From Thermoflexales bacterium (GTDB taxonomy: Bacteria; Chloroflexota; Anaerolineae; J036; Brachytrichaceae): 64,000 nt of DNA. Below are positions 34 through 62,330 of this stretch, in pieces (the stretch's first letter is position 1; each line of letters begins with the position of its first letter). The DNA is taken from NCBI GenBank assembly GCA_034430115.1, contig DAOUFG010000078.1:10606-74605 (forward strand). Direction: 5' to 3'. Both the position numbers and the translations under genes were made by a program. Below the pieces are notes generated by a model. The model ran no database searches and was not told the DNA's origin. It saw nothing but the letters and a program-made list of their open reading frames with translations.

Positions 34-1341
34 TTGGAAGCCGCGCTGCCGATGCTGGTGCAACTGGCCGACGCCTCCGACCCGCAGCGCCCGCACCAGA
101 CCTTTTTGCATCAGGCCGTCTCGCGCCTGGGCGAGCTGGAGCTATACGTCGATTGCATCCGCCAGTTGCGCGCGCTATTCGGCAGCGTGGAAGGGCGATT
201 TCACTCCGCTGGGCTGCGCCAACTACACCAGATGCTGGTCGCCCGCGAGGCGGACCCGGCCTTCCAATCACTCGCCGCCGAGTTACCTGCGCTCAGCGAA
301 AAGATGCGCAACGTGCGCAGTATCTCGGTAGGCATCAACCTCAGCCCGCAGTTGCAGCCGGTGGCGGCCACGCTGCTGTCGATCAGTTCGGAGCGTTACA
401 GGGGCGCGTCAAAGTCGTTGCTGGGCAAATTGTTGGGCACCCCCGCCAAGGATGAGGCCGACGAATACCAGGGCCTGGCCGAAATTCACAGCCTCCCGCT
501 CACTTCCAGCCTGCCGCATGGCAGCCTGGACGGTTCGGGGGAATATGTGAACCCCATGCTGGTGCCGCTCTTCCGCGACCTGAACGACATCTTGCAATCG
601 GTGGCCAGGCCGGTGGTGAAGGCGCTGGGGCGCTATATCAAGCTGAACGGGCAATTCGTCATCGCGCTGGAGGGGGAAATCGCGTTCTACCTGGGCGCGT
701 GCCGGCTGATCCAGCGCGTGCGCGCCGCCGGCTTGCCGCTGTGCCGTCCCGAGGTGCTCGGCATGCAGGCGCGCGTCTGTGAGGTGCAGGACACCTATAA
801 CCTGAACTTCGCGCTACGGCTGATGGAACGCCAGCCCGGCGCGGACCTGAGCGGGCAGGTGGTGACCAACGACGTCGCCTTCAACGACGCAGGGCGCATC
901 TTCATCCTCACCGGCCCCAACCAGGGCGGCAAGACCACCTACACCCAGGCCGTTGGGCTGATACAGGTGTTGTGTCAGGCGGGGCTTTACGTGCCGGGCA
1001 CCCATGCGCGCATCAGCCCAGTGGACGGCATCTACACGCACTTTCCGGTGGAGGAACGCCCCAGCCTGGAGGCGGGCCGGCTGGGCGAAGAGGCCAAACG
1101 GCTGAGCGACATCTTCGCGCAGGCCACCCGGAATAGCCTGGTGCTATTGAACGAATCATTAGCCAGCACCAGCCCCGGCGAAGGACTATACCTGGCGCGC
1201 GACGTGTTGCGTGCGCTCAAGCTGTTGGGGGCGCGCGTGATCTTCGCCACGCACCTGCACGAGCTGGCCGGGGGATTGCAAGCTGGTCAGCCTGGTGGCG
1301 TGCGCCGCCCCAGGCGACGACGCAGCCCGCCGCACCTATAA
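34..1341 (+). CDS. MutS-family ATPase (domain V), 5'-partial at window edge. The reading frame breaks near 1270-1285 and the conserved C-terminus continues in the +1 frame to 1458
   Basis: Walker A FILTGPNQGGKTTYTQ and THLHEL motif typical of the MutS ABC ATPase. The downstream +1 frame encodes CKLVSLVACAAPGDDAARRTYKIVPGPSMGQSYAKDIAARFGI, which matches the MutS C-terminal segment. Confidence 0.7.
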   Translation: MEAALPMLVQLADASDPQRPHQTFLHQAVSRLGELELYVDCIRQLRALFGSVEGRFHSAGLRQLHQMLVAREADPAFQSLAAELPALSEKMRNVRSISVGINLSPQLQPVAATLLSISSERYRGASKSLLGKLLGTPAKDEADEYQGLAEIHSLPLTSSLPHGSLDGSGEYVNPMLVPLFRDLNDILQSVARPVVKALGRYIKLNGQFVIALEGEIAFYLGACRLIQRVRAAGLPLCRPEVLGMQARVCEVQDTYNLNFALRLMERQPGADLSGQVVTNDVAFNDAGRIFILTGPNQGGKTTYTQAVGLIQVLCQAGLYVPGTHARISPVDGIYTHFPVEERPSLEAGRLGEEAKRLSDIFAQATRNSLVLLNESLASTSPGEGLYLARDVLRALKLLGARVIFATHLHELAGGLQAGQPGGVRRPRRRRSPPHL

Positions 1342-1458
1342 AATCGTGCCCGGCCCGTCGATGGGCCAGAGCTACGCCAAAGACATCGCGGCGCGCTTCG
1401 GCATCAGCTTCGAGCAACTGGCGCGCACCCTGCGCGAGCGCAAGGAGATCGAGGGGTG
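1262..1458 (+). pseudogene. Frame-shifted 3' segment of the MutS-family gene (frame 2, open 1241-1458)
   Basis: Frame 2 has no start codon yet encodes the conserved MutS C-terminus (YKIVPG...SYAKDIAARFGI). A G-run at about 1268-1274 is the likely indel site. Confidence 0.55.
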
Positions 1459-1578
1459 AACAGCAGAGAAGCGAAGAAGCAGAGAAGCAAAGGAACACAG
1501 GACCAAAGATAAATATGATCTCTGCGTCCTCCGCGCCTCAGCGGTAAACTCCTATTTCTTAATCTCTGTGGTGAGTCA
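1455..1578. repeat. Inverted copy of the 140-190-bp repeat family that flanks the GNAT gene (units gcagagaagc...caaagg and aatctctgtggtgag)
   Basis: The reverse complement matches cctttgcttctctgcttcttcgc and ctcaccacagag blocks seen at 6075-6265 and 7062-7196. Confidence 0.55.
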
Positions 1579-1606
1579 TCTAGCCCGCCCGCTCACGTTT
1601 CAATCT

Positions 1607-3106
1607 CTACTCTCCAATCTCTTCTTTTGCCCTCTGCGCCAGCACCTTCGCCCGCGCCGGCGCATCCCCGACATAGACGCTGGCGTCCAGCAAGGCGCGC
1701 GCGGTGGCGGCATCCACGTAGCGCGTCACCTGCGGGTCGGCACACAGCGAATCGATCAGCGGGTTCGGCTCGCCCGCGCTGACTCTGGCCCACGCTCGCA
1801 GGCTGTGCTGGCGGATCAACTCGTGCATCTGTTGCCGGTCGGCCCCGGCCTTCACGGAGACCATCAGCAACCGCTCGGTTGCGGCGAAGGGGCCATAGAC
1901 GCGCATGTTATGTGCCACCTGTGCCTCGTTTACGCGCAAGCCCTTCACCAGGCGCGTCGCCACGCGGATGATCTCATCGGCGCTGAGGAAAGCCTCGGCC
2001 AGCACCACGCGCCGGTTGGCCGAGTCGTCCAGCGTGCGCTCCAGCAGCGAGTGCGCCGCGTTGTCCCACATCACGCGCGGCAGGCCGGCCATGAAACGCG
2101 CCAGCGAATCGATCTTCTCGGCGTTGATCGGGTTGCGCTTGAACGGCATGGCCGACGAACCCACCTGTTTAGCGCCGAAGGGTTCGGCCCACTCGCCGAT
2201 GGGCGGCGACTGCAAAATGCGCAGGTCGAAGGCGAACTTATACAGCGACTGTGCGATGCCGGCCAGCACGTTCACCGCCAGCCAGTCCTGCTTGCGCGTA
2301 TATGTCTGCGTCGCCGCCGTGAACGCCTCCAGCCCCAGCTTTGCCAACACGCGCTCCTCTAAACTCTTATCCACGAATTGGCGCGAATCATCACCAATAG
2401 ATTCGCTTCCATTCGTGGAGATTCGTGGATGCCCTAATTCCATGTACGACGCGCTGGTGCCGACGGCGCCCTTCAGCCCTTTGCCTTTGATGCCGCCCAG
2501 GCAACTGAGCAGGGCGTCCAGGTCCATCAGCAAATCCTGCAAATACTGCGCCAGCCGATAGCCCAGCGTAGTCGGCTCGGCCGGTTGCAGGTGCGTGAAG
2601 GCCATCGTGGGCAGGTCGGCATACTGCGCCACCTTCTCGGCCAGTTCGCCGATCAGCCCGCGCAACGACGTGTGGATCAGCGCCAGCGCGTCGCGCAAGC
2701 GCAAGGCGTCGGCGTTGTCCTCGATGTCCATCGAGGTCGCGCCCAGGTGAATGACGCCGCCGCCTACCGGGCACTGCTCGGCATAGGCGCGCACCTCGGC
2801 CATCAGGTCGTGCTGGATGTCGCGTTCGATCTCCAGCGCCCGCGCGATGCTCGCCTCGGTCACGTCTTCGGCGTGCGCCCGCAGGTCGGCCAGTTGTTCG
2901 GCGCTGACGATGCCCATTTCGTGCTCGGCCTCGGCCAGCGCCACCCACACCCGCCGCCACAGCAGCCGCTTATTGCGCTCGCTCCAAATCGCGCGCATCG
3001 CCTCACTGCCATAGCGGGTGGTGAATGGAGATTGGTAATTAGAGATAGCAGATTGGAGATTAGAGATTGAGTTCACAGATATTCCCTTTACAACTTCCAT
3101 TTTCAT
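1607..3106 (-). CDS. purB: Adenylosuccinate lyase. The start is uncertain because the ORF track extends to 3178 through an AT-rich repeat.
   Basis: Fumarate-lyase family signature GSSAMPFKRNP and MAFTHLQPAEPTTLGY. The N-terminus YQSPFTTRYGS aligns with the PurB start. Candidate starts are ATG at 3106 or GTG at about 3082 preceded by aaggga. Confidence 0.9.
   Translation of the reverse strand: MKMEVVKGISVNSISNLQSAISNYQSPFTTRYGSEAMRAIWSERNKRLLWRRVWVALAEAEHEMGIVSAEQLADLRAHAEDVTEASIARALEIERDIQHDLMAEVRAYAEQCPVGGGVIHLGATSMDIEDNADALRLRDALALIHTSLRGLIGELAEKVAQYADLPTMAFTHLQPAEPTTLGYRLAQYLQDLLMDLDALLSCLGGIKGKGLKGAVGTSASYMELGHPRISTNGSESIGDDSRQFVDKSLEERVLAKLGLEAFTAATQTYTRKQDWLAVNVLAGIAQSLYKFAFDLRILQSPPIGEWAEPFGAKQVGSSAMPFKRNPINAEKIDSLARFMAGLPRVMWDNAAHSLLERTLDDSANRRVVLAEAFLSADEIIRVATRLVKGLRVNEAQVAHNMRVYGPFAATERLLMVSVKAGADRQQMHELIRQHSLRAWARVSAGEPNPLIDSLCADPQVTRYVDAATARALLDASVYVGDAPARAKVLAQRAKEEIGE
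3026..3072. repeat. GATTGGAGAT-type repeat cluster (ggagattggtaattagagatagcagattggagattagagattgag) overlapping the predicted 5' end of purB
   Basis: Direct reading. The AT-rich codons (tct aat ctc caa tct) contrast with the GC-rich body of purB. Confidence 0.6.
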
Positions 3107-3191
3107 GGGAAGCACACGGCCATAGAAATGGGGCCCGCGAATCGGGCTTTCCCAAGCCTGCCGTCGGTTTTGAGCCAATAGCGCCCGATCA

Positions 3192-4121
3192 TTAAATCAC
3201 GCGCGATGCGCCGGCGGCCCTCAACGCTTCGCGCAGCGGGCCGGCGCTCACTTCGTCGCGCGCCAGAGCAATCATATTCCCACCTCGCCCGCCGCCCGAA
3301 AGCTTTGCGCCCAGCGCGCCCGCCTGGCGCGCCGCCTGGCACAGGGCATCCAGCTCGCGGCACGACACGTCCATGCGCTGCAACAGGGCGTGATTCGCGT
3401 CCATCAATCGGCCCAGGCAGGGCCAATCGGCGGTTTGCAGTGCCTGGCGCGCGTCCGTCACCACCGCGGCGATCTGGTCGAATAAGGCCTCGTAACGTTG
3501 CGGGTCGGCCTCCCAACCCGCGCGCACGTCGCCCACGGGGATGCGCGTGGGCGTGGCGATGCCCGTATCGGCCACCACCAGCACCGGCGCGTGAGGGATG
3601 TTCATCGGCGTCGCGACCGAGGCCGCGCCATGCTGGCCGCGCACGAACCACACCGGCTGTTCGTGCGCCACCACCGTGTTGTCGATCCCGCTGGGCGAGC
3701 CGTGATAGATCTTCTCGGCCTCGAACGCCAGGTGGCTGGCTTCGTCGGGCGTGAGTTCGCGCCCGGCGTAGGCTGCCACAGCGCACGCGCAGGCCACCGC
3801 CACCGACGCGCTGCTGCCCAAGTGCGACGACGCCGGGATGTCGGAAGTGATGGTGAGCGTGCCGCCCAACACCGGCTGTTGCGCAAATTCGAACGCCAGC
3901 CGCGCTAGCACCGAAAGCGGACGGGTGGCATCGGACGCCAGGTCAAACTCGGCGTGAATATCCGGCGCGCAAATATGAAAAGGCCGATCCTCCGGCACGA
4001 CGGTGGCACGCGAACGCAAATGCCTTAGCGGCAGCGCGATGGCCGGGCGGCCATACACCACCGCGTGTTCGCCACACAAGATGACCTTCGCACAGGCGGA
4101 ACGGGTAACGATGACCTTCAT
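3192..4121 (-). CDS. GHMP kinase, probably mevalonate kinase
   Basis: N-terminal KVILCGEHAVVYG motif (mevalonate kinase), GHMP motif HLGSSASVAVA, C-terminal KLSGGGRGG. The start MKVIVTRSA is at 4121. Confidence 0.6.
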   Translation of the reverse strand: MKVIVTRSACAKVILCGEHAVVYGRPAIALPLRHLRSRATVVPEDRPFHICAPDIHAEFDLASDATRPLSVLARLAFEFAQQPVLGGTLTITSDIPASSHLGSSASVAVACACAVAAYAGRELTPDEASHLAFEAEKIYHGSPSGIDNTVVAHEQPVWFVRGQHGAASVATPMNIPHAPVLVVADTGIATPTRIPVGDVRAGWEADPQRYEALFDQIAAVVTDARQALQTADWPCLGRLMDANHALLQRMDVSCRELDALCQAARQAGALGAKLSGGGRGGNMIALARDEVSAGPLREALRAAGASRVI

Positions 4122-4136
4122 AGGCGCGACACTCCA

Positions 4137-4222
4137 CATGAAACATGAAACGTAAGCGCTGGGCTGATGGGTCCGTCATGATGCTCAGCGTGCGGCTGGT
4201 CATGCTTCTTTCACGTTTCATC
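4137..4222. repeat. TGAAACG-heptamer palindromic element, copy 1 (catgaaacatgaaacgtaag ... ctttcacgtttcatc)
   Basis: Tandem heptamers on the left arm, their reverse complement on the right arm, about 50-nt spacer. It fills the whole UbiA-stop to kinase-start gap. Confidence 0.65.
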
Positions 4223-5145
4223 TACGATTGCGGCAATAGGTACAACACGACTACCGCCGAAAGCGCCCATAACGCGATGGCGATTTGCATGGGCCGATCG
4301 GTGAGCAACAGTTCGTCGGGCGCGCCGCCCTCGCCTTTCACATGCACCAGGTATAGGTAACGGAACACGCCGTACATGACGAACGGGATCGTCAACATCA
4401 TGGTGTGGTTCGCCGGCAGTTGCGGCGCGGAGAAGGTGTAGAAGGAATAGGCGGCCAGGATCGCAGCCGTGACGATGGAGATGATCTGATCCAGCAGCGG
4501 CACCGTGTATTCATTCAATATTGCGCGCGTGCTGGCATTGCCGTTCAGTTCCACCAGTTCCTGGCGGCGCTTGCCAAAGCCCAATAGCAGCGCCAGCAAC
4601 AACATGCACACATACATCCACGGCGAAAAACGGATCGCCTCGGCCAGCACGGCCCCGGCGCCCACGCGCAACACGAACCCCAGCGCCAGCACCAGCACGT
4701 CCACGATCACCACGTGCTTCAGCACGAACGTGTAGAGCACTGTGGAGACGAAGTAGAGTAGCCCAATGATGGCAAAGCCGGGGTGAATCAGGTATGCCAC
4801 CACCAGCGACCCCACGGCCAGCACCGTCGCCCAGGTCACCGCCAGCGCCGGCGAAACGACGCCGCGCGCAATCGGGCGGTTACGCTTGGTGGGGTGCAGC
4901 CGGTCCGCCGGGGCATCGACCACGTCGTTGATCAGATACACCGCGCTGGAGAGGAAGCAAAACACGATAAAGCCGATGATCGAAGGCAGCAGGTACCTTT
5001 CCTGGAACAACTTGCCATCGAACACCACTGCTGCAAACACAAACCCGTTTTTCGTCCACTGCTTGGGGCGCATGGAACGGAACAGGCCGCGCACGACATT
5101 GATGAAACTGGACGGCTGCGCGCCCGTCCCCTTGTCAACACCCAT
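4222..5145 (-). CDS. UbiA-family prenyltransferase, decaprenyl-phosphate phosphoribosyltransferase-like
   Basis: NDVVDAPADRLHPTKRNRPIARGVV (UbiA NDxxDxxxD plus RP motif) and N-terminal RPKQWTKNGFVFAAVVF as in DPPR synthases. The protein is polytopic and hydrophobic. Confidence 0.65.
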   Translation of the reverse strand: MGVDKGTGAQPSSFINVVRGLFRSMRPKQWTKNGFVFAAVVFDGKLFQERYLLPSIIGFIVFCFLSSAVYLINDVVDAPADRLHPTKRNRPIARGVVSPALAVTWATVLAVGSLVVAYLIHPGFAIIGLLYFVSTVLYTFVLKHVVIVDVLVLALGFVLRVGAGAVLAEAIRFSPWMYVCMLLLALLLGFGKRRQELVELNGNASTRAILNEYTVPLLDQIISIVTAAILAAYSFYTFSAPQLPANHTMMLTIPFVMYGVFRYLYLVHVKGEGGAPDELLLTDRPMQIAIALWALSAVVVLYLLPQS

Positions 5146-5180
5146 AAAGCAATGATAAATGATTTATAAGGACGGGTAAC

Positions 5181-5240
5181 ACATGAAACGTGAAGATTGA
5201 AATATGAACGATCACTCTCTCATGTTTCATTCTTCACACG
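5181..5240. repeat. TGAAACG-heptamer palindromic element, copy 2 (four tandem TGAAnnn heptamers, then inverted partner)
   Basis: acacatgaaacgtgaagattgaaatatgaacga ... tcatgtttcattcttcacacg, between divergent ubiA-like and fhaA-like genes. Confidence 0.6.
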
Positions 5241-5294
5241 CCAATCATCGTCGATCAACCATCGTCAATAGTACAATCCCGCCAGGCAAAACAG

Positions 5295-6092
5295 ATGGAT
5301 AGATTTGAAGACCTGGCACAACGGCTGATCGAAAATTCGCTTGCGCGCATCCTGCACGAACGCCTCCAACCCGAAGAAGTGTTGCAGGCGATTGTGCATG
5401 CCATCGAAGACGCCCACACATTGGGCCCCAACAACGAGCCAATTGCGCCGAATCATTTCTGGGTCACCTTGAGCGAGCAGGACCTGGCCCCGCTGGAATA
5501 TCACCAGCCCGACCTGGCCGACCAACTGGCCGAAAGCGTGCGCCAGATGATCGTGCAGATGGGCCTGCGCATGGATATGCCGCCGCGCGTCTTGCTGCAG
5601 GGCGTGATCGACGTGCCCCCGCATCATCTGCGCGTCACAGCGCGCTGGATTCCGCCCGACCTGCCCGTCACCGCGACGACCCAACACCCCGCCCAGCCGG
5701 AGCACGAAGTGACGCTGCCGCGCCGGCCTTTCTTGATCGTGGATGGCCGCCGGCAGATTGCGCTGTCGAGCGAGCTGGTGCGCATCGGGCGCTCACGCGA
5801 AAATGACGTGGTGGTGGATGACCGGCGGGTCTCGCGGCATCATGCCGAGTTGCGCTGGCAGACGGAGGCGCAAAAGTTCCTCTACCTGGACATGGACTCC
5901 ACCGGCGGCACCAAGCTGAACGGCTACCCAATCCAGCAGTGCACGCTGGAGGCCGGGGACATCCTATCGCTGGGCGGCGTGGAGATCATCTACGGCGAGG
6001 AATTCCAGTTGCAGTCCACGCGCGCCAACGCGCCCATCGACGCCGATACCGACACAAGCACGCCGGCCGGTAATTCACCGCAGAGTCGCTGA
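5295..6092 (+). CDS. FhaA-like protein: DUF3662-type N-terminal domain plus C-terminal FHA domain
   Basis: N-terminus MDRFEDLAQRLIENSLARIL resembles the FhaA N-domain. C-terminus GRSRENDVVVDDRRVSRHHAEL...DSTGGTKLNG is a canonical FHA motif. Confidence 0.6.
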   Translation: MDRFEDLAQRLIENSLARILHERLQPEEVLQAIVHAIEDAHTLGPNNEPIAPNHFWVTLSEQDLAPLEYHQPDLADQLAESVRQMIVQMGLRMDMPPRVLLQGVIDVPPHHLRVTARWIPPDLPVTATTQHPAQPEHEVTLPRRPFLIVDGRRQIALSSELVRIGRSRENDVVVDDRRVSRHHAELRWQTEAQKFLYLDMDSTGGTKLNGYPIQQCTLEAGDILSLGGVEIIYGEEFQLQSTRANAPIDADTDTSTPAGNSPQSR

Positions 6093-6265
6093 GAACTTTG
6101 TCTCACCACAGAGTCACGGAAAGCACAGAGGATTCTATGTCTTGATTCTCTTGGCGGTTTATTCATTCGCACCGCAGAGTCGCCGGGGACGCAGAGAATT
6201 CACTTTATATCCTTTGCTTCTCTGCTTCTTTGCTCCTTCGCGGTTTGCTATGGTGATGAGGTTGC
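6075..6265 (+). repeat. Upstream copy of the GNAT-flanking direct repeat (tctcaccacagag...atgtcttgattctcttggcggtt ... ctttgcttctctgcttctttgc)
   Basis: 23-nt and 22-nt near-identical blocks are shared with 7062-7196. Confidence 0.7.
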
Positions 6266-6284
6266 CCGGCATAGGAGGGACTCA

Positions 6285-7061
6285 ATGAATGCTGTTCATC
6301 CGGCACGCTATTACTTGGACTGCATCGACAAAGGAATTTGCCTTTACTGGCGTTCACTGGGCAAAGCCCGCAACATGGAAATTCACGCCGGCGACATCGA
6401 ATACGTCCTCTCCACCCCGCGCGGCGGCCCGGAACGGATTTATAGGGTGAGCCTGGCGCCGGAAACGGCGGAACAACGCATCGCAGAAATCGGCGCGGGC
6501 ATTCGAGCCGGCAGCTTGCCCAACGGCATGCTCATCACGCCTGCCAGCACCCCCGAAAACCTGGTTGCTTTGCTGGTCAGGCACGGTTTCAGCATCGACA
6601 CAGCCGACCCCTGCATGGCCTTGGACCTGTGCAATCTTCGGAAGCCTTCCCCCACCGATGAAGCAATCCAGGTATTCACCCTGACGGACGACACCCGCTT
6701 GAGGCAGTGGGCCGATATTCTGAATGTGGCCTTATGCGGGTCGGAGATCATGCGCTACGAACAGTTGCATGATCTCTACGATCTCAACTATGCCACATTC
6801 TTTATGGCCCTCTATGAAGATGTGCCGGCTGCGGTGTCGATGACGCTCCGCGAAGGTGACACGGCCACGCTGGAGTTCGTCGCGACGCTCAAGGAACAGC
6901 GCCATAAGGGGCTCGGACGTGCCGTGGTAGGCGCTGCACTACGGCACCTGCGCGACGCGGGAATCGTGACCGTCACGCTGCGCGCCGAGCAGGATGGCAT
7001 TCGTCTCTACCAGCACATGGGGTTCATGGAAATCTGCAAGCGGACGGTGGCATATCTCTGA
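6285..7061 (+). CDS. GNAT-family N-acetyltransferase with N-terminal extension
   Basis: C-terminal acetyl-CoA binding motif QRHKGLGRAVVGAAL. SD aggaggg lies upstream of the ATG. Confidence 0.6.
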   Translation: MNAVHPARYYLDCIDKGICLYWRSLGKARNMEIHAGDIEYVLSTPRGGPERIYRVSLAPETAEQRIAEIGAGIRAGSLPNGMLITPASTPENLVALLVRHGFSIDTADPCMALDLCNLRKPSPTDEAIQVFTLTDDTRLRQWADILNVALCGSEIMRYEQLHDLYDLNYATFFMALYEDVPAAVSMTLREGDTATLEFVATLKEQRHKGLGRAVVGAALRHLRDAGIVTVTLRAEQDGIRLYQHMGFMEICKRTVAYL

Positions 7062-7196
7062 TCTCACCACAGAGAGCACGGAGAACGCCATGTCTTGATT
7101 CTCTTGGCGGTTAGGTCAGATTCACACAAAGAAACGAAGCAACAAAGACCACAAAGACTTCCCATTCTTTGCTGCTCTGCTTCTTTGCGGTTTAAC
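7062..7196 (+). repeat. Downstream copy of the GNAT-flanking direct repeat
   Basis: tctcaccacagagagcacgg...atgtcttgattctcttggcggtt ... ctttgctgctctgcttctttgcggttt. It abuts the acpS stop. Confidence 0.7.
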
Positions 7197-7570
7197 TACA
7201 TCGCGACGACGAACGCCACGGCATACTCCCGCTCGTGGGTCAGCGAGATGGACCACTCCTTCAGGCCCAACTCCTCCGCCCGGCGTGCCGCGCCACCATA
7301 CAGACGCACCAGCGGCTTGCCGCGCAGGTCGCCAATGACTTCGGCCTCGTGCCACAGGATGCCGTCGCGCGCCAGGATGCGCATTCCCACCCCCAGCGCT
7401 TTGCCCACCGCCTCCTTGGCGGCAAACCGCACGGCCAGTTCCGGCACGCGTTCGCGGCAATACAGGCGCTCCATCGGCGTGTACACCCGCTCCAGGAAGC
7501 GATCACCAAACTCGTGGATCGCCCGCTCCACGCGCGGGACGTAGATAATGTCAACACCAGTCGTTAGCAT
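7196..7570 (-). CDS. acpS: Holo-[acyl-carrier-protein] synthase (4'-phosphopantetheinyl transferase)
   Basis: GVDIIYVPRVE, FAAKEAVGKALGVG and WSISLTHEREYAVAFVV are characteristic of AcpS. ATG at 7570; the ORF-track extension to 7660 runs through a repeat. Confidence 0.8.
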   Translation of the reverse strand: MLTTGVDIIYVPRVERAIHEFGDRFLERVYTPMERLYCRERVPELAVRFAAKEAVGKALGVGMRILARDGILWHEAEVIGDLRGKPLVRLYGGAARRAEELGLKEWSISLTHEREYAVAFVVAM

Positions 7571-7663
7571 GATATTTACGATTTTGGATTGACGATTGCC
7601 GATTAACGCCTGCCATTGAAGAGAAGGGCAAATCGTCAATCCGCAATCTACAATCGTCAATCC
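7571..7663. repeat. GATTG-type palindromic element (ggattgacgattg ... caatcgtcaatcc twice)
   Basis: Perfect 13-nt inverted repeat with the right arm duplicated, between the M16 peptidase stop and the acpS start. Confidence 0.6.
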
Positions 7664-8962
7664 TCAGGCTCCTGCCGTCGTCAGGATGAAGTTTTGCGGG
7701 TCCAGCCACTTTTGTGCAGCGGCGCGAATATCGGCCAGGGTCACGCTGTGCACGCGTTCGGAATAGTGCAGCAGGTAATCCAGCCCCAGGTCGTAACGCA
7801 CCATATTGGCGATGTGGCCGGCAATGCCTTCGTTCGTCTCCATCTGCAACGGCAACGAACCGACGAAGTAGGACTGGTTATCCTCCAACTCCGTTTGCTT
7901 CACCTTGCGCTCGCGAATCCGCCGCACCTCGGCCACCGAGATGTCCACCACGCGGTTCACTGTGTTGGGGTTCGTGCCGGCGCTGATCGTCCACGCGCCG
8001 GGGCCGGGGCCACCCTCAAAGCGGCTGCCGATGTAATATACCAACCCCTCTTCCTTGCGCACGCTCTCGCCTAGCCGGCCATACATGCCAAACTGGCCCA
8101 GGATGCTGTTCATCAACACGCAACTGATCCAGTCCGGCTCATAGCGCGACGGGCCTGGAATGCCCCAGATCAGCGTCGTCTGGCTCTTGCCCGGCATGGA
8201 GATATCCTTGCGCGATTGCCCGCTCACGCGTGGCACGGGCGGCATTTCGGGGCGCGCCGGGCGCACGGCTTCCCAATCGCCAAAGGCCGCCTGCACGCGT
8301 TCACAGGCCTCCTGCGCCTTGAGCGCTCCCACGACGACCACCACCATCCCTTCCGGGGCGTAATAGGTGCGATGAAAATCCGCCACGTCGTCGCACGTAA
8401 TCGCCTGCGCCGTCTCGGGGTAACCCTCCACCGAGTAGTGATAGGGATGCGTATCGGGGTAGCACATCTCGCGGAAGGCCAGGCCCGCCCGCGCACTGGT
8501 GCTGTTGGCGCGCTCCTCCAGTCCGGCGAGCCACTCGCCGCGTTCCTTCTCCACCCCTTCCGCGGGGAAGGTGGGGCGGCGAATCACGTCGCTCAGCATA
8601 TCCAGCATGAAAGGCATGTCCTCGGCCAGGCTCTTGGAAAAGAACCCCGTGGAGTGCATACCCGAAGAGACGCTCAAATTCGCGCCGATGGACTCGGTCA
8701 ATTCAAAGAGCTGCTCGTAGCTGAAGCGCTCCGTGCCGCGCATCAGGCAGTCCGACACGAACGAGGCCAGCCCCGCCTTGGCAGGCATTTCATCGCGCGC
8801 GCCAACGTTCAAATAGCCGCTCACCACCACCGCCGGGCTGGCGAAGTTTTCGTAGGCAAAAACGCGAATGCCATTTTTCAGTTTGAGCTGCACGATGTTG
8901 GCCTCACAAGGCAGCGACTGTGCCACCGCGCGCTTCGCTTGATACTTTTGTCTGCTTGGCAT
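7664..8962 (-). CDS. M16-family peptidase, non-catalytic (beta-type) subunit
   Basis: M16-like architecture with no HxxEH motif. Immediately downstream of the active M16 gene. Confidence 0.65.
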   Translation of the reverse strand: MPSRQKYQAKRAVAQSLPCEANIVQLKLKNGIRVFAYENFASPAVVVSGYLNVGARDEMPAKAGLASFVSDCLMRGTERFSYEQLFELTESIGANLSVSSGMHSTGFFSKSLAEDMPFMLDMLSDVIRRPTFPAEGVEKERGEWLAGLEERANSTSARAGLAFREMCYPDTHPYHYSVEGYPETAQAITCDDVADFHRTYYAPEGMVVVVVGALKAQEACERVQAAFGDWEAVRPARPEMPPVPRVSGQSRKDISMPGKSQTTLIWGIPGPSRYEPDWISCVLMNSILGQFGMYGRLGESVRKEEGLVYYIGSRFEGGPGPGAWTISAGTNPNTVNRVVDISVAEVRRIRERKVKQTELEDNQSYFVGSLPLQMETNEGIAGHIANMVRYDLGLDYLLHYSERVHSVTLADIRAAAQKWLDPQNFILTTAGA

Positions 8963-8970
8963 GAATGTCC

Positions 8971-10356
8971 CTACTTCTCTTGCCCCCGGTAGTGGCCCAC
9001 CGTCACGTTATCGCGACTGAGATATTTCTCGGCCACGCGTCGCACGTCCTCTATGCCGACAGCGCTGAGGTTGTCCACAAAGCGGATGAACCACGCATAA
9101 TCGGCAAACACCTCACAGTACCCTAACCAGAACGCCTGGTTGGTGACAGACTCACTGCTGAAAGCGAACTGTGCTTTGGATTGTTTGATCGCCTTATCCA
9201 GCTCGGCCTGGGTGACGGACGACAGTTTCACCTTCTCGATCTCATCCCACAGCACGCGTTCCAGTTCGTCGATGTCCTTGCCCGGCTGCACCGTAGCAAA
9301 GAATGAATAGAGATAGGGATCGATTGTAGGCGTCACGCCTGCGCCCACATCGGCGGCCAGGCCGGTATCCACCAGCGCCTTGCTAAGCCGGCTGGAACGG
9401 TTGCTGGTGCCGCCGCCGGCAAATGAGAGCCCGCTCGCGCCGCATAACACCGAATCCAGCGCCATCAGCGGGAAGAAGTCCTCGTGCGCCTGGCTGTCGG
9501 GCCCGATTGGTGGCGGCGCATGAAACGACATCAGCAGATAGTCGGTACTGCCCTCGCCCTTCACCGTCACGCGGCGCTCGCCGCGCTGCTCCGGCTCATT
9601 GACCGAAAGCGGCGCAAGGTCGGGCCCGCGCTTCAGCTTGCCGTATAGCTGCGTCAGGCGCGCCAGCATCTCCTGCGTGTCAAAGTCGCCGGCCAGCGCG
9701 ACGATTGCGTTATTGGGCGTGTAGTAACGGCGATAGTGCGCGTATAAATCCTCGCGCGTCATGCTGGTCAGGTCGCACAGGTGGCCCACCACTTCATGCC
9801 CATAAGGGTGTACCTTGAAGGCCGCCGCCTGCACCTCCTCCGCCAGCCGGAAGACCGGGCTGTTTTCCGAACCCTGCCGCTCGTTGATGATGACGGTGCG
9901 TTCGCTCTGCACCTCCTGCGGGTCGATCAGCGAGTGCACCATGCGGTCCGCTTCCAGGCGCAACGCCAGGTCGATCTTGTTCGACGGCATCGTCTCATAG
10001 TAAGTGGTCCAATCGACCCAGGTCATGCCGTTGCGCATGCCGCCCTCGCGGCTCACCAGCCGGTCTAGTTCGGTTTCGCTGTACGTGGGCGTGCCTTTGA
10101 AGAGCATGTGCTCCACCCAGTGCGAAATGCCCGTGATGCCCAGGTGTTCATTGCGCGACCCCACGCGATACCACACCCAGAACGACGTCACCGGCGCAAT
10201 GTGCATCTCCTTCAGCACAAGCGTCAACCCATTGGGCAAGGCGGCCTTGGTAATGCCATCATGCTGCGCCAGGATGCGCGGGCGTGCAGATGGGAGGCGG
10301 CGTTTCGCAGCGCCGGTACGCGATAACCGTGCCGGCGCGCGAGTGTTTTTCGGCAT
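8971..10356 (-). CDS. M16-family zinc peptidase (pitrilysin/insulinase-like), catalytic subunit
   Basis: Inverted zinc-binding motif HWVEH followed by the EGGMRNG region. Confidence 0.8.
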   Translation of the reverse strand: MPKNTRAPARLSRTGAAKRRLPSARPRILAQHDGITKAALPNGLTLVLKEMHIAPVTSFWVWYRVGSRNEHLGITGISHWVEHMLFKGTPTYSETELDRLVSREGGMRNGMTWVDWTTYYETMPSNKIDLALRLEADRMVHSLIDPQEVQSERTVIINERQGSENSPVFRLAEEVQAAAFKVHPYGHEVVGHLCDLTSMTREDLYAHYRRYYTPNNAIVALAGDFDTQEMLARLTQLYGKLKRGPDLAPLSVNEPEQRGERRVTVKGEGSTDYLLMSFHAPPPIGPDSQAHEDFFPLMALDSVLCGASGLSFAGGGTSNRSSRLSKALVDTGLAADVGAGVTPTIDPYLYSFFATVQPGKDIDELERVLWDEIEKVKLSSVTQAELDKAIKQSKAQFAFSSESVTNQAFWLGYCEVFADYAWFIRFVDNLSAVGIEDVRRVAEKYLSRDNVTVGHYRGQEK

Positions 10357-11764: not shown

Positions 11765-11935
11765 TCCCCCAAACAAAAACGAGATTGGAGTTGGAGATGC
11801 GAGATTGGTTAATTCACCACAAATCAAAACGACTGTACAGGTGAGGGTTCCACCTGCATGATCGATGTCATCCGTAGTTGAGAGCGCCCAATCTCCATCT
11901 CAAATCTCTAATCTCTAGTTACCAATTAATCCCCA
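11765..11935. repeat. MITE-like element with about 35-nt imperfect terminal inverted repeats of GATTGGAGAT units flanking a roughly 65-nt core
   Basis: gagattggagttggagatgcgagattggttaatt ... aatctccatctcaaatctctaatctctagttaccaattaat, between the ugd start and the asd stop. Confidence 0.55.
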
Positions 11936-25496: not shown

Positions 25497-25534
25497 CAGG
25501 GGCCTCCGGCAAGCACAACGTTTGCCGGAGGTTT
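25497..25534 (+). terminator. Rho-independent terminator after the epimerase gene
   Basis: cctccggcaa-gcacaacgt-ttgccggagg stem-loop followed by tttttgtttc. Confidence 0.75.
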
Positions 25535-25576
25535 TTGTTTCACATGAAACATCGAAGGGCCTACGGATGTTTCACG
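25529..25576. repeat. TGAAACG-heptamer palindromic element, copy 3 (gtttcacatgaaacatc ... gatgtttcacgtgaaac)
   Basis: 17-nt inverted repeat with one mismatch. Contains the perfect 16-nt palindrome tgtttcacgtgaaaca. Confidence 0.65.
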
Positions 25577-25635
25577 TGAAACAGCATCAGGCGCGCAGCA
25601 GGGAATCAGGAATAGCAGGGGGGGGGGATAAAAAG

Positions 25636-34333: not shown

Positions 34334-35517
<1,184 letters not shown>

Positions 35518-39682: not shown

Positions 39683-39768
39683 TTTACGATTGTGGATTGC
39701 CGTGTCGCTTCGCCAACGTATCCTGCGTTGCGACGGACAATCCAAAATCTAAAATCGTGAATCAGAAA

Positions 39769-50397: not shown

Positions 50398-51090
<693 letters not shown>

Positions 51091-51153
51091 CCCGTTGCTG
51101 ACACATGATTGACACGCGCTCACCGTAGAACTGATCAATACGAGGAAATGAAG

Positions 51154-51216
51154 AATGAAACGTGAAACGTAAAGAATGCGCTGCAGACTTCTCACGTTTC
51201 ATGTTTCACGTTTCAA
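51154..51216. repeat. TGAAACG-heptamer palindromic element, copy 5 (tgaaacgtgaaacg ... cacgtttcatgtttcacgtttca)
   Basis: Two heptamers on the left arm, three on the right arm, inverted. Sits between the response-regulator and kinase genes. Confidence 0.65.
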
Positions 51217-51225
51217 TTGCCCAGT

Positions 51226-52752
51226 ATGTTCAAGCGACTAACGACCCGCCTGGTGCTCAGCCAGCTATTCGTGATCGGCGCGGCGACGGCAATTTTGATC
51301 TTCGTCTTGCTATCGCTGGTGCAAAACTACTTCGTGCAAGCCACGCTGGATAGCCTGCTCATTCAGGCCCGCCTGAGCGCACAAATGGTGACGCCCGGCA
51401 GCGCTACCGCACTTAACAACATCCAGCAGTCGCAACTGCCGTCGGCGTCCAACAGCATCCAGAACAATGCCCAAAGCCCATCCGCGCTCCAGGTGCAGAA
51501 CGTCACGCCGACGCTCGATCTCTCGCAAAGCCTGCCGGCACTGAGCAATGGCTTGCGCCTGAGCCTGGACCTGGAAACGCGCGTGCGCATCGTCAATGCG
51601 AATGGGATGGTTGAGTCCGACAGCGCCGGCACCGACCTGGGGCACAACGTCGGCGACGTGCCCGCCGTAAAGGCAGCGCTGGCGAACCAGGAGTCCGCCT
51701 ACGCCGAAGGCACCGAAGCCCTTGCGGCGGTTCCCTTGCCGCGCGTGGGTCGCGTGGTCGGCGTGGCCTTCCTCAGCCAGCCGCTGCGCGACGTCAGCAA
51801 CGTCATGGCCGACCTGCGCGCACGACTGCTGATTTCGGCGGCGATTGCGCTCATCTTTGCGGCGCTGGTGGGAGTGTTCCTGGCGCGTGGCATCGCCCGC
51901 CCTGTGCGCCAACTGACCATCGCCGCCAACGAACTGGCGCAAGGCGAATTTGACTACCCGTTGGAGGCTTCCTCGCCCGATGAACTGGGCGACCTGGCGC
52001 GCGCCTTTCGCCGCATGCGTGACGACCTGCAACAGATGTTACAGGCGCGCACCGACCTGGTGGCGAACGTCAGCCACGAGTTGCGCACGCCGCTGACGGC
52101 CATCAAAGGGCTGGTGGAAACATTGCGCGCCGGCGCCGTGGAAGATACCGCCGTGCGCGACACGTTCCTGGCTTCCATCGAGCAACAGACCGACCGCCTG
52201 ACTCGTCTGGTGAACGACTTGCTGATCCTTTCGCGTGCCGACTCACAGGCGCTGGCCCTGCAAGTGCGCCCGGTGGACCTGACGGCCCTGGCACATGCGT
52301 GCGTGCAGCAACTGGCCCCCAGGGCTGCGGCCACCCAGGTGACGCTGAAGGTGGAAGGCCCGTCCCTCACGGCGACTATCGACCCCGACCGGATTCAGCA
52401 GGTGCTGGTCAACTTGCTGGACAATGCCATCCGCTTCTCGCCACCCGGCGAGACGGTGAACGTCCGCATTTCCCAGGCGACGGATGGCGTGCGCGTCGCA
52501 GTGAGCGATCAGGGGCCTGGGATGGACGAAGCGGAGCAAGCGCGCGTGTTCGAGCGCTTCTACCGGGGCGATAAATCCCGTGTGCGCAGGGATGATAGCG
52601 GTGCAGGGCTGGGGCTCTCCATTGCCGAGGCACTGGTGCGCGCACATGGCGGCGAGATTGGCATCCATAGCCGGCCCGGTCACGGCACCAGCGTGTGGTT
52701 CACGCTTCCGAAGGGAGGGATTGGAGATGAGAGATTAGAGGCTGGAGATTAG
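51226..52752 (+). CDS. Sensor histidine kinase (HAMP plus HisKA plus HATPase)
   Basis: H-box HELRTPLTAIKG, N-box DNAIRFSP, G-boxes DQGPGM and GAGLGLSI. Two N-terminal TM segments. Confidence 0.9.
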   Translation: MFKRLTTRLVLSQLFVIGAATAILIFVLLSLVQNYFVQATLDSLLIQARLSAQMVTPGSATALNNIQQSQLPSASNSIQNNAQSPSALQVQNVTPTLDLSQSLPALSNGLRLSLDLETRVRIVNANGMVESDSAGTDLGHNVGDVPAVKAALANQESAYAEGTEALAAVPLPRVGRVVGVAFLSQPLRDVSNVMADLRARLLISAAIALIFAALVGVFLARGIARPVRQLTIAANELAQGEFDYPLEASSPDELGDLARAFRRMRDDLQQMLQARTDLVANVSHELRTPLTAIKGLVETLRAGAVEDTAVRDTFLASIEQQTDRLTRLVNDLLILSRADSQALALQVRPVDLTALAHACVQQLAPRAAATQVTLKVEGPSLTATIDPDRIQQVLVNLLDNAIRFSPPGETVNVRISQATDGVRVAVSDQGPGMDEAEQARVFERFYRGDKSRVRRDDSGAGLGLSIAEALVRAHGGEIGIHSRPGHGTSVWFTLPKGGIGDERLEAGD

Positions 52753-52954
52753 GAGAACCACGGATGACACGGATTGCACGGATTAAATCTGAGTCATCCG
52801 TGGTTGATTCAATCCCACATCTCCAATTTCTTTTTTGTGTTCTTTGTTGCTTTGTTTCTTCGTGTAGAGATATTCTTTACGATTGCCTCACGCTTGCCAC
52901 AGCGCTGACACATCCCTCTTCTACACTGGGTTCAATTTCTCACTGGAGGCAAAC

Positions 52955-61997: not shown

Positions 61998-62330
61998 AAA
62001 AACAAAAAAGCTCGTCCTCCGTTTAAAACGGAGGACGAGCTAAAACTCGTGGTACCACCCCACTTCGCCCAGACCTCACAGGCTGGACCTTATGCACCAC
62101 TCGTATGAATGGCGTTGCTCTGTAACAGGAGCACCTGGCAAGTTCTACTGGCCTGTATCAGGCGTTCTTCTTGCGCCTCAAGGGTGGCTATCCCCATGAA
62201 TGACGAGCACCAGGCTCACACCACCGGCTTTGGCATTGCAAAACCAGGCCTGGCTCTCTGCGCTGTCCTTCAAGGTTTGTTCCCTCTCCAAGACTTTGAT
62301 ATGTGTGATTTGAAGCTTATTTTAACAGAA
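61998..62330 (-). ncRNA. Probable T-box riboswitch leader of alaS (5' boundary approximate)
   Basis: The minus strand carries GGGUGGUACCACG (T-box consensus AGGGUGGNACCGCG; the UGGU bulge matches A73 of tRNA-Ala) 10 nt before a strong terminator (gctcgtcctccgtttaaaacggaggacgagc plus UUUUUUGUUUUU), and then SD aaggag plus the alaS ATG. An upstream AGAGAG box is present. Confidence 0.5.

What the first reader, a model, noticed from the sequence alone, without database searches (positions are those of the whole stretch)
4137..4222. Family of palindromic intergenic elements built from tandem TGAAACG heptamers (5 copies in 64 kb)
Copies lie at 4137-4222, 5181-5240, 25529-25576, 35472-35517 and 51154-51216. 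Each has 2-4 tandem heptamers (TGAAACG, TGAAACA, TGAAGAT...) on one arm and the reverse complement on the other, around a short spacer. Copy 3 contains the perfect 16-nt palindrome tgtttcacgtgaaaca with a CACGTG core. All copies are in short intergenic gaps. Two sit inside operons (kinase-ubiA, RR-HK). One lies between divergent promoters. One covers the annotated tgt start. A 7-nt periodicity is unusual for transcription-factor sites (usually 10-11 nt), so this looks more like a REP/BIME-like structured element or miniature mobile element. A shared regulator-binding site linking these genes cannot be excluded.
Basis: seen in the sequence. Interest (0 to 1): 0.55.

Follow-up and report, generated by a model that had tools for sequence, protein, structure and literature searches.

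The report
Heptamer-repeat hairpins plus a parS pair
The five sites are real but are two different things. One is a conserved pair of chromosome-segregation (parS) sites. The other four are fast-changing intergenic hairpins built from tandem 7-base repeats, a known kind of bacterial simple repeat seen here in a Chloroflexota genome.

Summary
In detail: five clusters of RTGAAAC/GTTTCAY heptamers lie at the stated places, all between genes, far above chance. They are not one family.

**Copy 3 is a parS pair.** Site 25568-25583 is the exact consensus TGTTTCAC-GTGAAACA. Site 25536-25551 has one mismatch. The pair sits at the same spot, just after a terminator, in two relatives.

**Copies 1, 2, 4 and 5 are inverted arrays of tandem heptamers that fold into hairpins.**
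- They behave like hypermutable simple repeats. A 98.6%-identical strain differs by exactly 14 nt (two units) in copy 5 and by 7 nt in a second array with a different unit. These are the only indels of 3 nt or more in 9.7 kb.
- Copies 1 and 2 are absent from relatives at 72-89% protein identity.
- Copy 4 is kept in one relative.
- At the copy-5 site, other relatives carry different or nested heptamer arrays.
- The window holds further heptamer arrays with other units.

The closest known kind is the heptamer simple repeats of cyanobacteria (STRR hairpins) and Xanthomonas. No repeat-associated (RAYT-type) or other transposase, regulon or Rfam family fits.

The unit equals a parS half-site, so weak ParB binding is possible but untested. 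This is a new member of a known kind, of modest interest.

The parts
4138..4221 (.). Copy 1: heptamer-array hairpin. The left arm is ATGAAAC ATGAAAC GTAAGCG (4138-4158). The right arm is GCTT CTTTCAC GTTTCAT (4204-4221). The interior is a unique 45 nt. It fills the gap between the UbiA-family gene stop (4222-4224) and the mevalonate kinase Shine-Dalgarno and ATG (4121).
   Evidence: minimum free energy -26 to -30 kcal/mol. Absent from relatives, where the ubiA stop overlaps or abuts the kinase ATG. Interior unique.
5183..5237 (.). Copy 2: heptamer-array hairpin, ATGAAAC GTGAAGA TTGAAAT ATGAACG ... GTTTCAT TCTTCAC, between the divergent starts of the UbiA-family gene (5145) and an FHA-domain gene (5295).
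   Evidence: (-21 to -22 kcal/mol, z -2.7 and -4.9). Absent from relatives at 89%, 77% and 72% identity.
25503..25536 (+). Intrinsic terminator of the epimerase gene: CCTCCGGCAA-N9-TTGCCGGAGG followed by a T run that leads directly into the first parS site.
   Evidence: 10-nt perfect arms. Conserved in relatives.
25536..25551 (.). parS site 1, TGTTTCACATGAAACA (1 mismatch to consensus).
   Evidence: A parS-like site is at the same position in L222 and L223.
25568..25583 (.). parS site 2, TGTTTCACGTGAAACA, identical to the consensus parS used in ParB studies.
   Evidence: 10.1101/724823. Orthologous sites are TGTTTCACATGAAACA in L222 and TGTTCCACGTGAAACA in L223.
35467..35514 (.). Copy 4: heptamer-array hairpin, TTGAAGG ATGAAAC GTAAGGA ... 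GTTTCAT CCTTCAC GTTTCAC, between the efflux-adaptor gene stop (35523) and tgt.
   Evidence: 15-nt perfect arms; -22.5 and -25.2 kcal/mol. Present but diverged at the same site in relative L222, with one change on both arms.
51148..51216 (.). Copy 5: heptamer-array hairpin, ATGAAGA ATGAAAC GTGAAAC GTAAAGA ... TTCTCAC GTTTCAT GTTTCAC GTTTCAA, between the response-regulator stop (51090) and the histidine-kinase ATG (51226).
   Evidence: -29 kcal/mol, z about -4. Strain L227 lacks exactly 14 nt, which is 2 units. Relatives L228-L230 carry other or nested heptamer arrays at this site.
7586..7663 (.). Same class, different unit: inverted heptamer arrays GATTGAC GATTGCC GATTAAC ... GTCAATC CGCAATC TACAATC GTCAATC, between two co-directional genes.
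52717..52828 (.). Same class, different unit: a (GGAGATT)-type array (GATTGGA GATGAGA GATTAGA GGCTGGA GATTAGG), a central hairpin, and an inverse arm (CAATCCCACATCTCCAAT), at the 3' end of the histidine-kinase gene.
   Evidence: A 7-nt indel against strain L227 at 52728.

Best explanation
The five sites are two unrelated kinds of feature that share a heptamer.

**(a) 25536-25583 is a tandem pair of parS centromere sites.** These are the 16-bp palindromes where ParB loads to organise and segregate the origin region. The pair is conserved in position in related species.

**(b) Copies 1, 2, 4 and 5 are inverted arrays of tandem heptamers.** The unit is RTGAAAC, degrading to RTGAAGR or GTAARGA. 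This is a hairpin-forming simple-sequence repeat of the type called STRR in cyanobacteria.

- *Shown:* units are added and lost in steps of 7 nt. Whole elements appear, disappear and nest inside one another on short evolutionary time scales. They sit almost only between genes.
- *Inferred:* the step changes come from slipped-strand mispairing at replication, the mechanism proposed for heptamer repeats (PMC4692102). When transcribed, they form -21 to -30 kcal/mol stem-loops between cistrons. These could alter mRNA stability, processing or translational coupling, as proposed for STRR hairpins and REP elements, or could be nearly neutral.
- *Inferred:* because the unit equals a parS half-site, ParB may bind them weakly as a side effect.
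For: **parS pair**
- Exact consensus at 25568-25583 and a 1-mismatch site at 25536-25551.
- The consensus is confirmed in 10.1101/724823.
- Both sites are conserved directly after the same terminator in two relatives with 88% epimerase identity.
- Full parS sites are rare elsewhere: one 1-mismatch site among the Chloroflexota loci fetched, roughly 1 Mb.

**Repeat hairpins**
- Window versus a 98.6% nt-identical strain: the only indels of 3 nt or more in 9.7 kb are 14 nt in copy 5 and 7 nt in a GGAGATT-type array.
- Copies 1 and 2 are absent from relatives at 89%, 77% and 72% identity. The 86% relative's gene table shows copy 1 absent as well. In the 89% and 86% relatives the ubiA stop overlaps the kinase start, and in the others it abuts it.
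- Copy 4 is retained in one relative, with a change on both arms.
- The orthologous response regulator-kinase gap holds (GATTGGR)n in L228. In L229 it holds a nested (GGAGATT)n[(TGAAACR)n...(GTTTYAT)n](AATCTCC)n.
- Period 7 is the commonest non-triplet tandem period. The window has 8 such arrays against 0-3 for periods 4, 5 and 8. In 635 kb of related contigs there are 48 against 9-20.
- Element interiors are unique.
- The same TGAAACG arrays occur in 69 Chloroflexota loci and in scattered other phyla. 76% of genome hits carry further in-register units, against 2% for a permuted control pattern in viral contigs.
- 123 of 124 copies are intergenic.
- Hairpins are stable on both strands.

**Literature**
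- 7-bp STRR hairpins lie between hupS and hupL in cyanobacteria (PMC2670836).
- Heptamer repeats are over-represented, variable in length and sometimes inverted in Xanthomonas and Nostoc (PMC4692102).
Against: - Slippage explains unit-number change but not how an ~84-nt element with a unique interior arose at a former gene overlap (copy 1). Some insertion or template-switch step is unexplained.
- The same heptamer recurs across phyla and equals the parS half-site. That is unlikely for an arbitrary repeat unit, at roughly 1 in 1000 per unit class.
- No expression data exist, so any RNA-level role is only an analogy.
- Across 50 elements lying between co-directional genes, the sense strand does not fold better than the antisense strand (26 versus 24, p = 0.9). 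This gives no support for selection on an RNA structure.
- The whole genome was not available, so copy number and position relative to the origin are unknown.
- No parA, parB or dnaA gene lies in the window.
Confidence: 0.65

Rival explanations
1. The TGAAACR arrays are functional ParB-binding sites. They would be clusters of parS half-sites that recruit or store ParB near the centromere, or shape the nucleoid, and the phage copies would exploit host ParB.
For: - The unit GTGAAAC/GTTTCAC is exactly a parS half-site.
- P. aeruginosa ParB binds single half-sites GTTTCAC and GTTTCAT genome-wide (PMC5961200).
- Four arrays lie within 26 kb of the parS pair.
- Each adjacent pair of units matches the 14-bp parS core at 11 of 14 positions (read directly from the sequence).
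- The unit recurs in many phyla that share this parS.
- A Lachnospiraceae locus has two full parS sites fused to such arrays (L040).
Against: - Arrays with unrelated units (GGAGATT, GATTGAC, GACCAAG and others) have the same architecture and the same 7-nt indel behaviour.
- Copies 1 and 2 are not conserved even at 89% identity.
- In complete genomes the arrays are scattered around the chromosome.
- Across taxa the arrays keep NNTCACG. The P. aeruginosa ParB motif instead needs T at position 3.
- Half-sites did not support ParB spreading (PMC5961200).
Confidence: 0.12
2. They are REP/REPIN- or MITE-type mobile elements, moved in trans by a transposase (RAYT or other) that recognises the heptamer arms.
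For: - Presence/absence polymorphism and apparent insertion into a gene overlap.
- Nesting of one array type inside another.
- In Caldilineaceae MAGs the heptamer hairpin sits inside a ~150-nt multi-copy composite repeat with conserved flanks.
Against: - No shared GTAG/CGTC tag and no target-site duplication (read directly).
- Interiors are unique.
- No transposase or recurrent protein lies next to 124 copies.
- Length differences between strains are exact multiples of 7 inside the arms.
Confidence: 0.12
3. They are operators of one transcription factor that co-regulates the flanking genes. Candidates are a ribbon-helix-helix protein binding 7-bp heptads, or a LacI-type protein binding TGAAACG/CGTTTCA half-sites.
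For: - Proteins that bind 7-bp heptad arrays in direct and inverted orientation exist (omega of pSM19035, WATCACW; PMC9499535).
- TGAAACG resembles LacI-family half-sites (own knowledge).
- Copy 2 lies between divergent promoters.
Against: - Flanking genes are functionally unrelated.
- More flanking genes have a copy downstream of them (114) than upstream (77). Convergent contexts (30) outnumber divergent ones (12).
- Spacers vary from 0 to about 65 nt in other genomes, with a ~45-nt interior in copy 1.
- Sites are not conserved between close relatives.
Confidence: 0.04

Closest known systems
Cyanobacterial STRR (short tandemly repeated repetitive) heptamer sequences, e.g. the hupS-hupL intergenic hairpin
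   Same: - 7-bp units in tandem.
- Intergenic, often between co-transcribed genes.
- Able to form hairpins.
- Many copies per genome, and function unknown (PMC2670836).
- Some related loci even carry near-identical units: TTGGTCC in L148 against STRR TTGGTCA (own knowledge).
   Different: - Different phylum (Chloroflexota, class Anaerolineae).
- Different unit (RTGAAAC).
- Here nearly every copy is an inverted pair of short arrays (2-4 units) rather than a long one-directional run.
Heptameric simple-sequence repeats of Xanthomonas (GGGAATC) and Nostoc (GGGGAYT)
   Same: - Over-represented intergenic heptamer repeats with heterogeneous units.
- Length varies between close relatives.
- Some occur as inverted pairs that could form stem-loops.
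- Polymerase slippage has been proposed as the mechanism (PMC4692102).
- The window's second unit, GGAGATT, is one base from the Nostoc unit.
   Different: - Those repeats are G-rich and were discussed as quadruplex formers.
- The TGAAACR unit cannot form quadruplexes, and its arrays are shorter.
Chromosomal parS / ParB centromere
   Same: Copy 3 is two parS sites by sequence and by conservation. The heptamer of the other copies is a parS half-site.
   Different: Copies 1, 2, 4 and 5 have the half-sites in tandem and facing outward, (GTGAAAC)n...(GTTTCAC)n. No full 16-bp palindrome is formed, and they are not conserved.
REP/BIME and REPIN elements of proteobacteria
   Same: Short, dispersed, extragenic palindromes, often inside operons or at 3' ends of genes, with presence/absence variation.
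   Different: No GTAG/CGTC tag, no RAYT found, arms made of tandem 7-mers, and unit-number slippage.
Omega (ribbon-helix-helix) heptad arrays of plasmid pSM19035
   Same: Contiguous 7-bp units in direct and inverted orientation, with a similar core (WATCACW against NNTCACG).
   Different: Those arrays are contiguous without spacers, lie at three promoters of one plasmid, and have a known binding protein. Here copies are dispersed, carry spacers and are unstable.

Membership tests
parS (ParB-binding centromere site), copy 3 only | 16-bp palindrome matching TGTTTCACGTGAAACA with few mismatches | tested here: met
   0 and 1 mismatch at 25568 and 25536. Consensus taken from 10.1101/724823.
parS (ParB-binding centromere site), copy 3 only | Conserved at the orthologous position in related genomes | tested here: met
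   L222 and L223 each have two parS-like sites after the same terminator.
parS (ParB-binding centromere site), copy 3 only | Origin-proximal location and a ParB encoded in the genome | not testable with these tools
   No parA, parB or dnaA gene in the 64-kb window.
Heptamer simple-sequence repeat / STRR-like hairpin, copies 1, 2, 4, 5 | Tandem units of 7 nt, heterogeneous in sequence | tested here: met
   Unit spectrum.
Heptamer simple-sequence repeat / STRR-like hairpin, copies 1, 2, 4, 5 | Unit-number variation between close strains, in steps of 7 nt | tested here: met
   14-nt and 7-nt indels are the only indels of 3 nt or more in 9.7 kb against L227.
Heptamer simple-sequence repeat / STRR-like hairpin, copies 1, 2, 4, 5 | Intergenic location, with several unit types in the same genome | tested here: met
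   123 of 124 copies intergenic. Other units at 7586-7663, 52717-52828, 3026-3069 and elsewhere.
Heptamer simple-sequence repeat / STRR-like hairpin, copies 1, 2, 4, 5 | Inverted arrays able to form a hairpin | tested here: met
   Copies 2, 4 and 5 give z-scores of -2.7 to -4.9. Copy 1 is weaker (z -0.9 and -1.6) because of its long interior.
REP/REPIN (RAYT-mobilised) | Conserved GTAG or CGTC tag at one end of the palindrome | tested here: not met
   The flanks of the four copies share no tag. The GTAG next to copy 1 is the ubiA stop-codon context.
REP/REPIN (RAYT-mobilised) | Cognate RAYT gene in the genome | not testable with these tools
   The whole genome was not available. None was found near 124 copies.
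MITE | Terminal inverted repeats plus a target-site duplication and a conserved interior shared among copies | tested here: not met
   Inverted arms are present, but no duplication is evident and interiors are unique.
Rfam structured RNA families | Match to a covariance model | tested here: not met
   No hit on any copy at the gathering threshold or at E <= 5.
Intrinsic terminator | GC-rich hairpin followed by a U run | tested here: not met
   No T run follows either arm of copies 1, 2, 4 or 5 (read directly). The true terminator next to copy 3 is a separate hairpin at 25503-25531.

The most novel reading that the evidence does not exclude
The TGAAACR-type heptamer arrays are not arbitrary repeats. 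They are arrays of parS half-sites that ParB occupies in vivo, forming a dispersed, fast-evolving layer of low-affinity ParB sites in Chloroflexota and other phyla. Phages copy this layer: a phage contig carries about 8-10 such arrays in 10 kb. This would link heptamer simple repeats to chromosome organisation.
Probability: 0.12. Interest if true: 0.7.

Novelty: new member of a known kind. Interest (0 to 1): 0.3.

Why it matters
- **Annotation.** The window gains a real centromere, a conserved parS pair. That pair is a useful marker of the origin-proximal region in an uncultured Anaerolineae genome.
- **Caution for motif grouping.** Motif-sharing sites should not be pooled. A parS pair and unstable repeats share a heptamer here.
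- **Range of heptamer repeats.** Heptamer-repeat hairpins, known mainly from cyanobacteria and Xanthomonas, are shown to be common in Chloroflexota. They change by 7-nt steps between near-identical strains.
- **Effects on genes.** They can break gene overlaps (ubiA-mvk), sit just before start codons, and alter protein C-termini.
- **Open question.** Why the unit equals a parS half-site in many phyla is unanswered, and is cheap to test by ParB ChIP-seq.

Tried and rejected
- **Rfam.** No family covers the elements at the gathering threshold or at E <= 5.
- **Literal sequence search of the literature.** Searching for GTGAAACGTGAAAC returned only unrelated miRNA primer papers.
- **Regulon idea.** An all-against-all BLAST of 191 flanking proteins found no recurrent family. 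Pfam on genes lying between paired elements showed only housekeeping enzymes and no transposase.
- **RNA-level selection.** The sense strand does not fold better than the antisense strand for 50 elements between co-directional genes (p = 0.9).
- **Origin-proximity genes.** No parA, parB or dnaA gene was found in the window.
- **Extending the genome.** Two look-ups failed because the guessed start codons did not match recorded proteins.
- **Raw hit counts in viral contigs.** A permuted control pattern gave more hits (64) than the real pattern (17). Only the in-register extension test discriminates, at 76% against 2%.
- **Tn3-like inverted-repeat resemblance.** A similarity to the flank of the Ardenticatenaceae copies was considered. 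It was dropped because it is one-sided and weak.

Full report
**Observation.** The five clusters exist where stated.
- The arm pattern TGAAACRTGAARM, with one mismatch allowed, occurs 9 times against 0.54 expected.
- A two-arm pattern occurs 4 times against 0 expected.
- The hexamer TGAAAC/GTTTCA clusters only at these five places.
- A period-7 scan for TGAA finds no additional hidden copy, and shuffles give 0-0.05.
- The refined limits are 4138-4221, 5183-5237, 25536-25583, 35467-35514 and 51148-51216.

**Setting.** The window comes from an uncultured Chloroflexota (Anaerolineae-type) organism. Its proteins are found in JGI and Logan metagenome assemblies, and its closest named relatives are Anaerolineae MAGs. 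The neighbouring genes are as follows:
- mevalonate kinase (start at 4121) and a UbiA-family decaprenyl-phosphate phosphoribosyltransferase (4222-5145), both on the minus strand
- an FHA-domain protein (5295-6092)
- an SDR epimerase (24419-25471)
- tRNA-Arg and SRP RNA
- tgt and an efflux adaptor gene
- an OmpR-type response regulator (50398-51090) and a histidine kinase (51226-52752)

The rest of the window encodes housekeeping and cell-envelope genes. It has no parA, parB or dnaA.

**Copy 3 is a parS pair.**
- The 16-mer at 25568-25583, TGTTTCACGTGAAACA, is letter for letter the consensus parS used in ParB biochemistry (10.1101/724823).
- The site at 25536-25551 differs at one central base.
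- The two sites lie 32 bp apart, centre to centre. They directly follow the epimerase terminator (25503-25531 plus a T run).
- Two relatives whose epimerase is 88% identical have the same layout. After the same terminator they carry TGTTTCACGTGCAACC, then TGTTTCACATGAAACA in L222 or TGTTCCACGTGAAACA in L223.
- Full parS sites are otherwise rare. The Chloroflexota loci fetched, roughly 1 Mb, hold one site with one mismatch.

I therefore read copy 3 as a real, conserved centromere element.

**The other four copies are heptamer-repeat hairpins.** Each is an array of 2-4 tandem heptamers (ATGAAAC, GTGAAAC, GTGAAGA, TTGAAAT, GTAAAGA and similar), then a spacer, then the reverse-complement array.
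- They fold stably on either strand: -21 to -30 kcal/mol. For copies 2, 4 and 5, z is -2.7 to -4.9. Copy 1 is weaker because its interior is long.
- None is followed by a T run, so they are not canonical intrinsic terminators.

**Dynamics among relatives.**
- *Copies 1 and 2 are recent gains.* In the relative with 89% UbiA identity (L226, GCA_036504435.1) the ubiA stop overlaps the kinase start (ATGA), and the FHA-ubiA gap has no array. The relatives at 77% and 72% lack both copies too. The gene table of the 86% relative shows ubiA and the kinase overlapping, so copy 1 is absent there.
- *Copy 4 is older.* It is present at the same tgt-adaptor junction in L222 in diverged form, with one position changed on both arms.
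- *Copy 5 differs between near-identical strains.* A strain 98.6% identical in nucleotides (L227) lacks exactly 14 nt, which is two units, of the right arm. The only other indel of 3 nt or more in 9.7 kb of alignment is a 7-nt indel inside a different heptamer array at 52728.
- *The copy-5 site is a hot spot.* In 81-82% relatives the same response regulator-kinase gap holds other heptamers. L228 has (GATTGGR)n. L229 and L230 have a nested element, (GGAGATT)n[(TGAAACR)n ... (GTTTYAT)n](AATCTCC)n.
- *Interiors are unique.* They match nothing else in the data.

**It is a general class.**
- Tandem Repeats Finder shows that period 7 is the dominant non-triplet period. The window has 8 arrays of 2.8 copies or more, against 0-3 for periods 4, 5 and 8. 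In 635 kb of related contigs fetched through the UbiA homologue there are 48, against 9-20.
- The window holds further inverted heptamer elements with other units, at 7586-7663 (GATTGNC) and 52717-52828 (GGAGATT). It also holds one-directional arrays at 1601-1621, 3026-3069, 11897-11917 and 39739-39756.

**Distribution of the TGAAACG type.**
By my count of the record titles, 69 are Chloroflexota (Anaerolineae, Caldilineaceae, Ardenticatenaceae, Litorilinea, Leptofilum, Chloroflexia). Several MAGs have 4-7 hits.
- The remaining loci are spread over Verrucomicrobiota, Planctomycetota, Bacteroidota, Desulfobacterota, Gallionellaceae and others.
- These are true arrays. In 76% of hits the heptamer just outside the matched pattern repeats the unit at 5 of 7 positions or better. 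For a permuted control pattern in viral contigs the figure is 2%.
- The commonest unconstrained units are TGAAACG, TGAAGCG, TAAAACG and TGATGCG.
- 123 of 124 copies are intergenic. Convergent gene contexts (30) outnumber divergent ones (12).
- Flanking proteins share no family and include no transposase.
- In Caldilineaceae MAGs the heptamer hairpin sits inside a ~150-nt multi-copy composite repeat.

**Comparison with what is known.**
- Cyanobacterial STRR sequences are 7-bp tandem repeats that form hairpins between co-transcribed genes such as hupS-hupL. Their function is unknown (PMC2670836).
- Heptamer repeats are over-represented in many bacteria. In Xanthomonas and Nostoc they are intergenic, heterogeneous, variable in length between relatives and sometimes inverted. 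Polymerase slippage has been proposed as the cause (PMC4692102).
- All defining features of this kind were tested here and met. The defining features of REP/RAYT elements and MITEs that could be tested were not met. No Rfam family matches.

**Mechanism.**
- *Shown:* 7-nt step changes, gain and loss of whole elements, nesting, intergenic restriction and hairpin potential.
- *Inferred:* slipped-strand mispairing as the source of the step changes, and an effect of the transcribed hairpins on mRNA stability, processing or translational coupling. Copy 1 replaced an ATGA gene overlap by 84 nt plus a new Shine-Dalgarno sequence. Copy 5 ends 10 nt before the kinase ATG.
- The one test available gives no support for RNA-level selection. 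For 50 elements between co-directional genes, the sense strand folds no better than the antisense strand.
- How a complete element with a unique interior arises at a new site remains unexplained.

**The ParB question.** The unit is exactly a parS half-site. P. aeruginosa ParB binds single GTTTCAC and GTTTCAT half-sites genome-wide without spreading (PMC5961200). A functional link is therefore conceivable, and it would explain why this unit recurs in many phyla. Four points argue against it:
- Arrays with unrelated units have the same architecture and dynamics.
- The copies are not conserved between close relatives.
- The arrays are scattered around complete chromosomes.
- Across taxa the conserved positions are NNTCACG, which is not the ParB half-site pattern.

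I give this reading about 12%.

**Verdict.** The finding resolves into a known element (parS) plus a new member of a known kind (heptamer simple-repeat hairpins in Chloroflexota). Interest is modest. The half-parS identity of the unit and the dense phage copies are the only points that could raise it.

Noticed in passing
window 7586-7663: A second heptamer hairpin with a different unit: GATTGAC GATTGCC GATTAAC ... GTCAATC CGCAATC TACAATC GTCAATC. It lies between the M16 peptidase gene stop and the 4'-phosphopantetheinyl transferase gene.
   Followed up: partly
window 52717-52828: A (GGAGATT)-type heptamer array overlaps the last codons and the stop of the histidine-kinase gene, followed by a central hairpin and an inverse arm. 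A 7-nt indel against strain L227 goes with a different kinase length (508 aa here, 501 aa in P0241), so repeat slippage probably rewrites the protein tail.
   Followed up: partly
window 3026-3069 and 1601-1621: CAATCTC-type heptamer arrays flank the adenylosuccinate-lyase gene in inverted orientation, 1.4 kb apart. The upstream array lies inside the longest ORF, where 3 units of 7 nt encode a repeated ISNxQSx peptide. The true start codon is uncertain.
   Followed up: no
L229 1790-1925 (also L230): The orthologous response regulator-kinase gap holds a nested element. TGAAACR arms lie inside GGAGATT arms, which suggests that one heptamer hairpin arose or inserted within another.
   Followed up: partly
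L016 (IMG/VR 3300048819_000301) 570-9730: A phage contig with a large terminase and a Mu gp27-like protein carries about 8-10 TGAAACG arrays in 10 kb. Three one-directional arrays end 5 nt upstream of start codons (GTTTCA-N5-ATG).
   Followed up: partly
L041, L049, L067, L108, L116, L139 (Caldilineaceae MAGs): A ~150-nt multi-copy composite repeat has a central (GTGAAAC)n GTGAGATC..loop..CACCTCAC (GTTTCAC)n hairpin. Its flanks are conserved (GGTGGCGAAGCCACGATTTGCGTG on one side, GTTGGTTGGCCGACCGACTAACGC on the other). It sometimes occurs in tandem.
   Followed up: partly
window 62028-62299 (-): A T-box leader match below the gathering score (52 bits, E = 1.5e-8) lies upstream of an alanyl-tRNA-synthetase-like gene (60193-61968, minus strand).
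   Followed up: no
L030 917-1818 (Bdellovibrionota MAG): A cluster of four parS sites (0-2 mismatches) within 900 bp, evidently that genome's centromere region. It was picked up by chance in the pattern scan.
   Followed up: no
L040 5228-5278 (Lachnospiraceae MAG): Two full parS sites are fused to an inward heptamer array: TGTTTCAC GTGAAAC GTGAAAC AGACAAT GTTTTAC GTTTCAC GTGAAACA. The layout resembles window copy 3.
   Followed up: no
window ~44.7-49.7 kb versus L227 2088-9051: Strain-variable island. Where the window has a LysM protein and a short Fic protein, the 98.6% strain has an AAA_15/AAA_21 ATPase plus a DUF4276 protein, an Mrr-type restriction endonuclease and a longer Fic protein.
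   Followed up: no
L148 4253-4320; L195 16889-17026; L217 1006-1109; L011 323-398: Further inverted heptamer arrays with other units (GACCAAG/TTGGTCC, GCATCCT, ACGTAAA/ACGTTTG, AGTCCAA) in unrelated Chloroflexota metagenome contigs and one viral contig. TTGGTCC is one base from the cyanobacterial STRR unit TTGGTCA (own knowledge).
   Followed up: no
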